From assembly GCF_046105845.1 (NCBI RefSeq), contig NZ_CP151004.1: a stretch of DNA of 64,000 bases; one strand, 5' to 3'. This document shows positions 7,601-10,600 of the stretch, in pieces (the stretch's first letter is position 1; each line of letters starts with the position of its first letter). The stretch is from Escherichia coli (lineage in GTDB: Bacteria; Pseudomonadota; Gammaproteobacteria; Enterobacterales; Enterobacteriaceae). A program made the position numbers.

Positions 7601-10600
7601 TAATGGCATTCAGAATGAGTGAACAACCACGGACCATAAAAATTTATAATCTGCTGGCCGGAACTAATGAATTTATTGGTGAAGGTGACGCATATATTCC
7701 ACCTCATACAGGTCTGCCTGCAAACAGTACCGATATTGCACCGCCAGATATTCCGGCAGGATTCGTAGCCGTTTTCAACAGTAATGAGGCATCGTGGCAT
7801 CTCGTTGAAGATCATCGGGGTAAAACGGTTTATGACGTGGCTTCCGGCGACGCGTTATTTATTTCTGAACTCGGACCGCTACCGGAACATGTCACCTGGT
7901 TATCCCCGGAAGGGGAGTTTCAGAAGTGGAACGGCACAGCTTGGGTGAAAGATGCAGAAGCAGAAAAACTGTTCCGGATCCGGGAGGCGGAAGAAACAAA
8001 AAACAGCCTGATGCAGGTAGCCAGTGAGCATATAGCGCCGCTTCAGGATGCTGTAGATCTGGAGATCGCAACGGAGGAAGAAAATTCGTTGCTGGAAGCC
8101 TGGAAAAAGTATCGGGTGTTGCTGAACCGTGTTGATACATCAACTGCACCTGATATTGAGTGGCCGATAATTCCTGTAACATCATAGTCATTATTTATTT
8201 GTTTTGCTGACATGTTGTATACGACAACGTGTCAGCAGTTTGACTGGTATTATAACGAATATATTGTAATGTTTTCTGGTGTTATTAATTGTTGTTTTAT
8301 TACCATATATCTATGGGTTTTGTTTTCTGCTCATCTAAACAAAATGCACAGATGTAAGCCCCCTTACTTCGGTTGTACTGAACCGTTTCTAAAGCAGAGT
8401 CAAGATGTTTACTATCAAAGTTCCAGCTTTTTTCCATAACAGAAACACATTTTCTGCAATAGAAACTTTCTTTTGAGTTAGTATCTCCTGAATCATTTTT
8501 AGTGTAGCCAAAGAATTTTTTTGCTGATTCCTTTGAACATGCGGAAATGGCTGCAGTGAACTCATAATGAGTTTGAAGCATAGCCCATACAATACCTGAA
8601 AATTCTTCATCCTCGTCTTCATCTAGTCCTATATTAATGCCGCCAGAGGAATGTATTGCTTTATATTTATACCTATGCCATATCCAGTGTGCTGATTCAG
8701 TATTTAGATAGTTGTGAGCACGTACAACTGATGTGAAAATTAGCTCTGGCATTATATCTGTTTTTTTATCAACCGTATGCATAAAACGATTTCTTAGAAT
8801 GCGCATACTATTAAACCAAGTAATAAAGTCATCAGGCAGTGATTTAGAGGCGAAAGTATTATATACTTTAATTAAATCTTGGGCGTCTAATGTGTGGAAG
8901 TCTGAAAATGAAATGTTACCTTCACTATCAGGTTTAGGTGTATTGCGAGTTGCATTCGTGATAAGTAGATAAGGTGATATTTCGACGATAAGTCCTTTTA
9001 GTCTGAATTCAATGGATTGAAGTATCAAATTAAAAGATGTAATCAATTTTGGTCTAGCAAATAACCAATAATGCTCTAAATTTTTAATATCTGATTCTGT
9101 ATAGAATTTAGACGTTTTACAATAACTATTCCAAAGGTTTATATCTCTGTAATCATAAGCTAAATCGGCAATTTTTTCCCAAGCCTCATTTACCATGTGG
9201 TCAGCCATTGTATAAAAATCAGTCTTTGTTGGAATGTCAGTTATCATTATCAATCTACCTTTGGGTCTTTATTGTTGTCTATCAAGATATAATATTCAGG
9301 CTGGAGTGGCTAATGTTGATCTACTTATTTTCTCCCGGTAAGTCAGTTTATCGCGATATAAGCCGCATTTGATTTTGGCGACTATGGTCGTGTTAGGTAT
9401 GTATCTGGCGTGTTACTGCGCCAGATTAAATATAAACCAATAATATTAAAGGGTGTTACTCTCTTGACAGATTTAGGGAACAAATCACTCGTCAGCTGAC
9501 TCCCAAGTATCTTTCAGAGTTTCCTGAACAAAAGTTTTAGCTGAATCTTTATCGGCGGTGCGCCTAACAGAAAAACCATCGTTGCTGGTGGCTTTTACGA
9601 TCATCTCCACATCGTCATAATGCTCGCCAATGTATTGGGTTAATTCTTCCTTTAATGCGTCTACAGCGCCGTTTGGCATTTGGTCATTTTGTCTTTGGCT
9701 ATGGAGATCTCAATACGCATAACATTTCTTTTGTACTGCGTTTGTAGACAGTATTATTCTTATCTGTGTAAATAAACAGTATCAAGACTTCGTTTTAGCT
9801 GCATAAGAAAAAAGAGATGGATACATTCGGAAAGATTTTGATGGTGGTAGGCTAAGTGAATAGCCTAAAGGTGTTTTACCCCAATTATTCCCCGGTATTT
9901 CTCCGCATAAAAAACAATCATAAAAACAACAGCCATAATAGGCTGGTTCTTAAGGGATTTTTGGTCCACGAGAGAATTTGAACCTCCGACCCCCGACACC
10001 CCATAATGGTGTAATTAATCAGGTTAAATATTTAGCAGATCCTCTACAATATCATTAAACCCAGATGCCTGTTTAGATACAGAATTGAATAAGTCTCTAA
10101 GTGCTTGTGTTTGCTCAAAAGTTTCCCAAAGTGTTTTATAACTTGGCGTTACAATTGCTAATACTAAGCCTTCCGCCCATGACCATTCATGTTCATCAAA
10201 ATAGTAGCGATATTTTCTGCTGTATATAACAAAATCCTTTTCCTTATATTTAGCATGAAACACAACTTGAATTATATCCTGTGTACCATTAACAAGGTTT
10301 TCAGGCGCATCAATTGCCATCCAATTTATCATTTTTTGGACAGTTAACTTATTTAATGAAACAATTAGCTTTGTGGTTTTATCGTTATGCATAATTAGTC
10401 CAGTTGCATATCTTTCACAATTTCGTTAACTCTTGAGTTGAGTATACTCAACTTCTCATAGAGCTTCCAGGCTTGGTCTTGGTCATTGATATTAATGGAG
10501 ATTTCTTTTCTTCGAAAGATTCCTTTGGGTTTGACTTCATCAAAAAATATATCAATCTTTGAGCGTTCCTTGGTTGGAAGCCTGCTGAAAAGGCTTTCAG

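What the first reader, a model, noticed from the sequence alone, without database searches (positions are those of the whole stretch)
8206..8236. Near-perfect 13-bp inverted repeat between tfa and the convergent HEPN-like gene
Seen in sequence: gctgacatgttgt-atacg-acaacgtgtcagc forms a 13-bp stem with a single G-U-type position and a 5-nt loop, but lacks a U tract on either strand, so it is not a textbook intrinsic terminator. Inference: candidate structured RNA element, Rho-dependent or bidirectional stop signal, or protein or recombinase binding site at the boundary between the structural module and the cargo.
Basis: seen in the sequence. Interest (0 to 1): 0.3.

Follow-up and report, generated by a model that had tools for sequence, protein, structure and literature searches.

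The report
Stem-loop ending a prophage tail-fibre operon
The palindrome is real and is this prophage remnant's version of the RNA hairpin that follows the tail-fibre assembly gene in phage lambda and most of its relatives. It is an ordinary end-of-operon stem-loop, not a new kind of element.

Summary
The 13-bp inverted repeat is exactly where it was reported (8206-8218 / 8224-8236, 5-nt loop, one U·G pair on the + strand). It is far beyond chance. It lies 18 nt after the tfa stop codon and 63 nt before the stop of a convergent 317-aa gene, which is a HEPN-fold protein.

The exact sequence is rare and clonal: 14 of 5,426 E. coli genomes, all identical, including an intact 44.6-kb lambdoid phage. 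Homologues of the HEPN gene elsewhere do not carry the hairpin, so it belongs to the tfa side.

About two thirds of 71 distinct tfa-downstream sequences from lambdoid prophages have a strong hairpin at the same place. The dominant family (GCCGCAG…CTGCGG, present in lambda at 22,573-22,606) shows compensatory changes. A covariance model built from it, without the window, picks 8200-8247(+) as its best hit in the window, but weakly (16.7 bits).

Neither strand has a U tract after the stem. The half-site is not repeated elsewhere, and arm spacing varies among relatives.

The best reading is a stem-loop that defines and protects the 3' end between convergent transcription units, of the U-poor kind described for Rho-dependent transcripts. 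Here it is a relic, because the late operon is truncated. Interest is low.

The parts
7603..8187 (+). tfa (tail fibre assembly protein, 194 aa), the last gene of the remnant late/tail operon
   Evidence: Pfam Caudo_TAP, E = 3.7e-44. It is 94-96% identical to thousands of E. coli tfa genes up to about 8165-8177.
8188..8205 (+). 18-nt U-rich spacer between the tfa stop codon and the stem
   Evidence: Sequence. The lambda-type relatives have 13-15 nt spacers.
8206..8218 (+). left arm of the stem (GCTGACATGTTGT)
8219..8223 (+). loop (ATACG)
8224..8236 (+). right arm of the stem (ACAACGTGTCAGC)
   Evidence: The T8213·G8229 pair is tolerated only in the + strand RNA.
8237..8247 (+). 3' flank AGTTTGACTGG. 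It shares GTTTGACT, at nearly the same offset, with the K-12 Rac copy and the L183 copy of the lambda-type hairpin.
   Evidence: Alignment. The covariance-model hit spans 8200-8247.
8300..9253 (-). convergent 317-aa cargo gene: a HEPN-fold protein with a C-terminal 4-Cys ribbon. It is not part of the hairpin element.
6938..7603 (+). C-terminal fragment of the side tail fibre gene, cut by an IS3-family element (5789-7002). This shows that the late operon feeding the hairpin is decapitated here.
   Evidence: ORF list. The intact phage has a 3,072-bp stf gene at this place.

Best explanation
The inverted repeat is this element's version of the stem-loop that follows tfa at the right end of the tail-fibre (late) module of lambdoid phages.

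Shown: its position, its stability, the presence of equivalent hairpins after tfa in lambda and most relatives, and compensatory evolution in the dominant family.

Inferred: it acts as RNA, chiefly in the + strand (late-operon) transcript. The stem forms just outside the footprint of the ribosome terminating on tfa. It lacks a U tract, so it would not release RNA polymerase efficiently by itself. Instead it would set and protect the mature 3' end. Transcription that runs on into the untranslated antisense of the AT-rich cargo is stopped by Rho or collides with convergent transcription. 3'-5' exonucleases then trim the RNA back to the stem.

Because the repeat is a palindrome, it can do the same, less stably, for the convergent cargo transcript. 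In this window it is a relic: an IS element has cut stf, and the rest of the prophage is gone.
For: 1. It lies 18 nt after the tfa stop. The + strand RNA folds at -19.3 kcal/mol (z = -6) and the - strand at -14.8.

2. It is not part of the cargo gene's module. Homologues of the 317-aa gene at 45-81% identity, in Salmonella, Leclercia and other hosts, lose all similarity at their stop codon and have no such hairpin.

3. Of 71 distinct tfa-downstream sequences, about 46 have a hairpin of -13 kcal/mol or stronger within 75 nt. Lambda has CCGCAGAAACGTT-N9-AACGTTCTGCGG, which starts 16 nt after the tfa stop.

4. In the lambda-type family (16 sequences, window excluded), 92% of cells are paired, 5 of 12 pairs change on both sides, and the covariation score is 0.30 against 0.13 in shuffles (0 of 500 shuffles reach it). 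Slid controls pair at only 26-54%.

5. The covariance model from that family has its best hit in the whole window, on both strands, at 8200-8247(+): 16.7 bits, E about 0.005. Five other types of strong post-tfa hairpin score below 8 bits.

6. Transitions in stems give G·U on the + strand in 6 lineages and on the - strand in 2, and the latter two are singletons.

7. [quoted passage not shown] Here C/G exceeds 1 from about 60 nt downstream on the + strand and about 40 nt on the - strand.
Against: - There are no transcript data for this element or for lambda at this site. The literature searches found none.
- The late operon is truncated in this window, so any function is past, not present.
- The preference for the + strand rests on one G·U pair here. 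The family-wide count of 6 against 2 is not significant, and the lineages are related.
- The first 60 nt downstream on the + strand are G-rich rather than C-rich, which fits poorly with a rut site immediately downstream.
- In a lytic infection the late transcript is made by Q-modified polymerase, which ignores terminators (established knowledge of lambda Q). Where that transcript ends is unknown.
- Inserting a ble cassette between tfa and ea47 in lambda changed neither growth nor lysogeny (PMC3945230). The exact insertion point relative to the hairpin is not given.
- Homology to the lambda-type family is not proven. Plain local alignment is not above a shuffle null, and a chance 17.4-bit hit to the model occurred inside an ORF in a 93-kb control.
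Confidence: 0.55

Rival explanations
1. The hairpin serves mainly the convergent cargo operon (- strand), as the terminator or 3'-end protector of the HEPN-gene transcript. This is the 'moron' model, in which each cargo cassette carries its own terminator.
For: It lies 63 nt downstream of the 317-aa gene's stop codon on the - strand. Several other post-tfa hairpins have an A tract on their 5' side, which makes them canonical terminators for the leftward strand: the L025, L042, L011, L049 and L186 types and the K-12 Rac copy. C/G exceeds 1 from about 40 nt downstream on the - strand.
Against: On the - strand the stem has an A·C mismatch (-14.8 against -19.3 kcal/mol) and is followed by AAAACAAAUAAAUAAU, with no U tract. 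Homologues of the gene in other genomes do not carry the hairpin. The spacer and 3' flank resemble tfa-linked copies.
Confidence: 0.2
2. The element matters at the DNA level, as a module junction. A conserved block of about 35 bp, kept between otherwise unrelated flanks, would serve as a short homology patch, or as a fragile site, through which lambdoid phages swap the cargo downstream of tfa.
For: In the lambda-type family, conservation is confined to the hairpin plus 2-7 nt. At least 5 unrelated 5' contexts and 6 unrelated 3' contexts are joined to it in many combinations. Lambda carries a second copy at about 24,162-24,195, so ea47 is bracketed by two copies. In Rac and Qin the copy lies on the far side of the pin-ynaE-ynaM cassette. 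The reported minimal pairing segment for Red-beta is 23-27 bp (PMC3945230).
Against: The window's own copy shares only short runs (8 nt at most) with the other copies, so it could not serve as such a patch now. There is no second copy at the far end of this cargo. Junctions at gene ends are expected anyway, because selection removes breaks inside genes. No recombination data exist for this site.
Confidence: 0.15
3. It is an operator or recombinase site: a dimeric DNA-binding protein recognises the two 13-bp half-sites. For example, it might regulate the promoter-like sequence at 8240-8267(+), which reads antisense into the HEPN gene.
For: The symmetry is near perfect, with a central base. A sigma-70-like match, TTGACT-16-TATTGT, starts 4 nt after the stem.
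Against: The half-site occurs nowhere else in the window or in the complete 44.6-kb phage beyond chance expectation. Relatives vary the spacing between arms (19-22 nt) and carry bulges. Promoter-like matches in the region are no more frequent than in shuffles, 6 against 8.2. The annotation of the intact phage lists one integrase and no invertase, and attP is about 2.6 kb away. There is no resemblance to hix/gix/pix or dif sites (my own knowledge of those sequences).
Confidence: 0.05
4. It is a chance palindrome with no function.
For: All known copies are identical, so there is no variation within the lineage to show selection on this particular sequence.
Against: z = -6 against shuffles. Comparable repeats gave 13 hits at 6 sites in the window against 0.4 hits in shuffles. 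It lies at the same position as hairpins after tfa in most relatives. It is the top covariance-model hit in the window.
Confidence: 0.03

Closest known systems
[quoted passage not shown]
   Same: Both are stable hairpins of terminator-like size. Both lack a U-rich tail and an upstream A tract, lie just after the end of a gene, and are followed by untranslated RNA with some C>G bias.
   Different: Rho dependence and a mapped 3' end are not shown here. The C>G bias starts only about 60 nt downstream on the + strand. In lytic growth the natural transcript is made by Q-modified polymerase.
The hairpin after tfa (orf-194) in phage lambda, J02459 22,573-22,606, and its family in E. coli lambdoid prophages
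   Same: Same position (13-18 nt after the tfa stop), same stem size, U-poor tail, and the junction with convergent b-region or cargo genes. They also share the inner motif ACAyGTTGTAT…AACGTG and the 3' GTTTGACT. The covariance model places its top window hit here.
   Different: The outer stem is GCTGAC/GTCAGC instead of the nearly invariant CCGCAG/CTGCGG. The loop is 5 nt instead of 5-11 nt. The model score is only 16.7 bits, against 44-70 bits for clear members. I recall that Luk & Szybalski (1983) mapped tandem late-operon terminators (t'J1-4) in this part of lambda, but I could not retrieve that paper, so any identity with this hairpin is unverified.
Intrinsic and bidirectional Rho-independent terminators
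   Same: A GC-containing stem-loop placed after a stop codon between convergent genes.
   Different: The defining U tract is absent on both strands. Other long inverted repeats in the same window (10885, 12994, 30065) do have A and T tracts.
Stem-loop cassettes at mosaic joints of T4-type phage genomes (Arbiol et al. 2010, PMC2839356; I saw only the title and the start of the abstract)
   Same: A short conserved stem-loop recurs at the borders of variable gene cassettes. In lambda two copies bracket ea47.
   Different: That system pairs the stem-loop with an early promoter; no promoter is shown here. The window's cargo has only one copy. No recombination evidence exists.
REP/BIME palindromes as mRNA 3' stabilisers (my own knowledge)
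   Same: A U-less hairpin downstream of a gene that can block 3'-5' exonucleases.
   Different: It is not a dispersed repeat. There is one place per genome in the 14 genomes that have it, and the sequence is unrelated to REP.

Membership tests
Canonical intrinsic (Rho-independent) terminator | Stable GC-containing stem-loop just after the gene | tested here: met
   A 13-14 bp stem, -19.3 kcal/mol, 18 nt after the tfa stop.
Canonical intrinsic (Rho-independent) terminator | Run of U (about 5 or more in 8 nt) immediately 3' of the stem | tested here: not met
   The + strand tail is AGUUUGAC and the - strand tail is AAAACAAA. The scan finds no terminator at this site.
Bidirectional terminator | A tract 5' and U tract 3' of one hairpin, so that both strands read hairpin followed by U tract | tested here: not met
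   The arrangement is the reverse of what is required: U-rich 5' of the stem and a mixed tail 3' of it.
3'-end stem-loops of Rho-dependent transcripts (PMC6061677) | Stable stem-loop with neither a U-rich tail nor an upstream A tract | tested here: met
   compared with the description.
3'-end stem-loops of Rho-dependent transcripts (PMC6061677) | C-over-G bias (rut-like) in the sequence downstream | tested here: inconclusive
   On the + strand, C/G is 0.5-0.8 for the first 60 nt or so and then 1.2-1.8. On the - strand, C/G is 0.9 and then up to 2.4.
3'-end stem-loops of Rho-dependent transcripts (PMC6061677) | A mapped steady-state RNA 3' end at the base of the stem, lost or shifted when Rho is inhibited | not testable with these tools
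   There are no RNA data for this element. K-12 lacks this copy, and the Term-seq tables show no 3' end at the Rac copy.
Lambda-type post-tfa hairpin family (defined here, alignment A4, model R1) | Starts 13-18 nt after the tfa stop codon | tested here: met
   The spacer is 18 nt here and 13-15 nt in family members.
Lambda-type post-tfa hairpin family (defined here, alignment A4, model R1) | Significant match to the family's covariance model | tested here: inconclusive
   It is the top hit in the window at 16.7 bits, E about 0.005-0.013. Other kinds of post-tfa hairpin score below 8 bits. However, a chance 17.4-bit hit occurred inside an ORF, and clear members score 44-70 bits.
Lambda-type post-tfa hairpin family (defined here, alignment A4, model R1) | Outer stem CCGCAG/CTGCGG (or the compensated CTGCAG/CTGCAG) | tested here: not met
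   The window has GCTGAC/GTCAGC.
Operator of a dimeric DNA-binding protein | Half-site recurs at other regulated sites, and arm spacing is fixed among relatives | tested here: not met
   There are no further copies in the window or in the whole phage. Spacing is 19-22 nt, with bulges.
Any described RNA family (Rfam 15) | Match at or above a family's gathering score | tested here: not met
   Only sub-threshold noise overlaps 8173-8366.

The most novel reading that the evidence does not exclude
The post-tfa hairpin would be more than an operon-end stem-loop. It would be a portable junction element of lambdoid phages: a block of about 35 bp that brackets cargo cassettes between tfa and att. Two copies flank ea47 in lambda, and copies lie distal to the pin cassettes in Rac and Qin. 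The block would insulate transcription and also supply the short homology through which Red-type recombinases swap defence and other cargo. The window's copy would be a diverged member tied to a HEPN defence cassette.
Probability: 0.15. Interest if true: 0.45.

Novelty: new member of a known kind. Interest (0 to 1): 0.17.

Why it matters
For this window it matters little. The hairpin is a leftover end-of-operon structure in a decayed prophage at ssrA.

Two things are of modest wider use:

- Lambda and most of its E. coli relatives share a covarying, U-poor stem-loop right after tfa. No Rfam family matched the window's copy. The stem-loop could be used to mark the right end of the tail module and the start of cargo when annotating prophages.
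- Its recurrence at cassette borders, twice in lambda, gives a concrete and testable candidate for how cargo downstream of tail-fibre genes is exchanged. That position often holds defence genes such as the HEPN protein here.

Tried and rejected
- Exact or near-exact copies elsewhere. The GenBank phage collection had none. A pattern scan of GTDB species-representative genomes had none. IMG/VR had 2 contigs, both identical. A metagenome scan for the inner palindrome gave 63 loci, of which only 2 are this element and are identical; the rest are unrelated palindromes at about the number chance predicts. So covariation within this lineage cannot be tested.
- Rfam. No family matches the hairpin.
- Plain sequence homology to the lambda-type hairpins. 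The best local alignments are in register but score no higher than shuffled queries.
- A second genome scan for the lambda-type pattern. Apart from four Escherichia genomes, it returned mostly chance GC-rich palindromes from unrelated phyla.
- Experimental 3' ends. K-12 tfaR and tfaQ are followed by pin genes and have no adjacent hairpin. The Adams 2021 tables have no 3' end at the Rac copy. The Dar & Sorek supplements are not held. Six literature searches for termination of the lambda late operon found nothing usable.
- The 75-codon ORF at 8212-8439(+), which starts inside the left arm. I rejected it as a gene. It has no ribosome-binding site, its start codon is buried in the stem, it is antisense to the HEPN gene, and no homologue exists to test.
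- The resemblance of TTCCTGTAA at the tfa end to gix. I rejected it, because no invertase is annotated in the intact phage and the match covers only 9 nt.
- Comparing + and - strand folding energies across the family. The + strand is usually the more stable. However, the hairpin boundaries were optimised on the + strand and the variants are related, so I give this little weight.

Full report
**Observation.** The repeat is exactly as described: GCTGACATGTTGT (8206-8218), ATACG, ACAACGTGTCAGC (8224-8236). Twelve pairs are Watson-Crick. T8213·G8229 is a wobble pair in the + strand RNA and an A·C mismatch in the - strand RNA. The + strand folds at -19.3 kcal/mol (z = -6.05, 0 of 200 shuffles as stable) and the - strand at -14.8 (z = -4.14). 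Inverted repeats of this quality gave 13 hits at six distinct sites in the window, against a mean of 0.4 hits in dinucleotide shuffles. Three of the other five sites (10885, 12994, 30065) are classical terminators with A and T tracts. Here the tail is AGTTTGAC on the + strand and AAAACAAA on the - strand, and the terminator scan reports nothing.

**Context.**
- The window carries smpB (11616-12098, -) and, by correspondence with E. coli HS, ssrA at about 11042-11404.
- Between ssrA and an IS3-family element (5789-7002) lies a prophage remnant. It consists of the last roughly 660 bp of a side tail fibre gene, tfa (7603-8187, Pfam Caudo_TAP), the hairpin, and four leftward cargo ORFs in AT-rich DNA. 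GC falls from about 0.51 to 0.29-0.41.
- The same 171-bp junction is 100% identical in 14 of 5,426 complete E. coli genomes.
- One of those copies lies on a 44.6-kb circular replicon that is an intact lambdoid phage. Its order is terminase…J-lom-stf-tfa-[hairpin]-cargo-…-parA-int-…-Q-lysis. The window therefore holds the right end of such a phage, with its late operon cut off.

**Which side owns the hairpin?**
- The 317-aa cargo protein has homologues at 45-81% identity in Salmonella, Leclercia, Proteus, Pectobacterium and Acinetobacter.
- In three fetched contexts the homologue sits next to an EcoRII restriction-modification system, DarT-macrodomain genes or an SMC-like ATPase.
- In each of those contexts, similarity to the window stops at the stop codon and no such hairpin follows.
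- Conversely, similarity of tfa to thousands of other tfa genes runs to about 8165-8177. The last seven codons, the spacer and the hairpin diverge together, as they do among other tfa types.
- So the hairpin travels with the end of tfa, not with the cargo gene.

**Related prophages.**
- I collected tfa 3' ends from IMG/VR by protein similarity and by a conserved 17-mer in tfa. This gave 71 distinct 70-nt downstream sequences.
- About 46 of them have a hairpin of -13 kcal/mol or stronger within 75 nt of the stop.
- The dominant family starts 13-15 nt after the stop and reads (G)CCGCAG-N1-3-ACGT…ACGT-N-CTGCGG(C).
- Lambda itself has it at J02459 22,573-22,606: CCGCAGAAACGTT gtatgaaat AACGTTCTGCGG, then TTAGTTAG.
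- A sub-type reads CTGCAG…CTGCAG, a two-sided compensatory change.
- On an alignment of 16 distinct members (window excluded), 92% of cells pair and 5 of 12 pairs show changes on both sides. The covariation score is 0.30 against 0.13 ± 0.02 in shuffles (0 of 500 reach it). Sliding the partners drops pairing to 26-54%. The structure, not only the sequence, is conserved.

**Is the window's hairpin a member of that family?**
- A covariance model built from the 16 sequences, run with filters off over the whole window and both strands, has its best hit at 8200-8247(+). The score is 16.7 bits, E about 0.005 with rough calibration. The next hit is a classical terminator at 12.9 bits.
- Five other kinds of strong post-tfa hairpin do not reach 8 bits, so a hairpin alone does not earn the score.
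- The window shares ACAyGTTGTAT-C-A-AACGTG, in register, with the L015 type (17 of 22 positions). It shares GTTTGACT just after the stem with the Rac and L183 copies.
- Against membership: clear members score 44-70 bits. Local alignment is not above a shuffle null. A chance 17.4-bit hit turned up inside an ORF in a 93-kb control. The near-invariant outer stem is replaced, though with full compensation.
- I therefore call it the positional and structural equivalent of the family hairpin, and probably a diverged relative.

**Mechanism.**
- No strand has a stem followed by a U tract, so it is not a canonical or bidirectional intrinsic terminator.
- The features match the class described by Dar & Sorek. 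[quoted passage not shown] They protect the transcripts from PNPase and RNase II, and mild C>G enrichment follows downstream (PMC6061677).
- In the window, both transcripts leaving the hairpin are untranslated antisense RNA. C/G exceeds 1 from about 60 nt downstream on the + strand and about 40 nt on the - strand. That fit is only partial.
- The + strand is the better candidate. The single non-Watson-Crick pair is G·U there. Across the family, stem transitions produce G·U on the + strand in six lineages (window, L162, L264, L183, L088, L034) and on the - strand in two singletons (L273, L151). This is suggestive but not significant.
- Flanks differ among relatives. Some have an A tract 5' of the stem and so are canonical terminators for the leftward strand (L025, L042, L011, L049, L186, Rac). 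The commonest type has TATTTTTT 8 nt after the stem.
- The hairpin thus looks like a general insulator between the late operon and the convergent b-region or cargo genes, with the flanks setting its strength and direction.

**Rival readings.**
- A protein operator or recombinase site is unlikely. The half-site is not repeated in the window or in the complete phage. The spacing of the outer arms varies from 19 to 22 nt, with bulges. The annotation of the intact phage lists one integrase and no invertase. The promoter-like match next to the stem is within chance expectation.
- A DNA-level role as a module junction cannot be excluded for the family. Conservation is confined to the hairpin plus 2-7 nt, joined to many unrelated flanks.
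- Lambda has a second copy at about 24,162-24,195 (63.6 bits). Together with the first copy it brackets ea47. It is followed by the very flank that in other prophages follows the post-tfa copy directly.
- K-12 Rac (1,434,731-1,434,764) and Qin (about 1,632,523-572, decayed) carry copies on the far side of the pin-ynaE/ydfK-ynaM/ynfT cassette.
- A 33-36 bp identical block is at the reported minimal pairing length for Red-beta, 23-27 bp (PMC3945230).
- The window's own copy is too diverged to act this way now, and its cargo has no second copy.

**Verdict.** The element is an ordinary, already familiar kind of thing: a U-poor stem-loop at the end of an operon between convergent genes, with a counterpart in lambda. 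In this genome it is a relic. The family-level pattern of copies at cassette borders is the only mildly interesting by-product.

**Dead ends.** There is no variation among copies of the exact element in any collection. No Rfam family matches. No usable transcript data or literature on the end of the lambda late operon could be found. My recollection that Luk & Szybalski (1983) mapped late-operon terminators in this part of lambda could not be checked.

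Noticed in passing
L005 3156-3205 (= lambda J02459 about 24,162-24,195); L287 5732-5765 (= K-12 NC_000913.3 1,434,731-1,434,764); L288 2524-2573 (= about 1,632,523-1,632,572): The lambda-type post-tfa hairpin has further copies away from tfa. One lies in lambda between ea47 and ea31, so ea47 is bracketed by two diverged copies. One lies in Rac and a decayed one in Qin, each beyond the pin-ynaE/ydfK-ynaM/ynfT cassette. The Rac copy has an upstream A tract, which makes it a canonical terminator on the opposite strand.
   Followed up: partly
[not shown]
   Followed up: partly
window 7946-8144 (+): A strong Rfam match to IS009 (RF02111, 222.6 bits, full length) lies entirely inside the tfa coding sequence. 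That 'sRNA' family may simply be a conserved piece of tfa.
   Followed up: no
L289 (NZ_CP148393.1, whole record): A 44.6-kb circular replicon annotated as a plasmid is an intact lambdoid phage genome. It carries a ParA gene next to its integrase and the same tfa-hairpin-cargo block. The ssrA island in the window is a remnant of such a phage.
   Followed up: partly
L054, L162, L178, L179 and many other IMG/VR loci: Many prophage contigs carry two tfa 3' ends exactly 1,049 bp apart on the same strand, each followed by a hairpin copy. The flank after the L044-type hairpin contains CCTTGAACCTTGGTTTTAACA, which resembles hix/pix invertase crossover sites.
   Followed up: no
window 62443-62477: There is a second long hairpin with a weak U tract (GTTCACGTTGTCGCC GTTAT GGCGACAACGTGAAT). 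It lies 12 nt after the stop of the ORF at 61456-62430(+), between convergent ORFs. It is possibly another 3'-end stem-loop of the Rho-dependent kind.
   Followed up: no
window 1806-7603: An IS3-family element (orfA 6655-7002, orfB 5789-6835, both on the - strand) abuts a long autotransporter-like ORF (1806-5819) and the truncated side tail fibre gene (6938-7603). E. coli HS has a different arrangement at the same place (IS3, a YpjC-like pseudogene, IS1A).
   Followed up: no
K-12 NC_000913.3 1,434,540-1,434,552 (-): The published Term-seq tables (PMC7815308) list an 'orphan' 3' end about 180 nt beyond the Rac hairpin copy on the minus strand. They list none at the hairpin itself.
   Followed up: no
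L361, L376, L380, L391 (metagenome contigs): Unrelated environmental contigs carry GACAYGTTGT…ACAACRTGTC palindromes in closely spaced tandem arrays.
   Followed up: no
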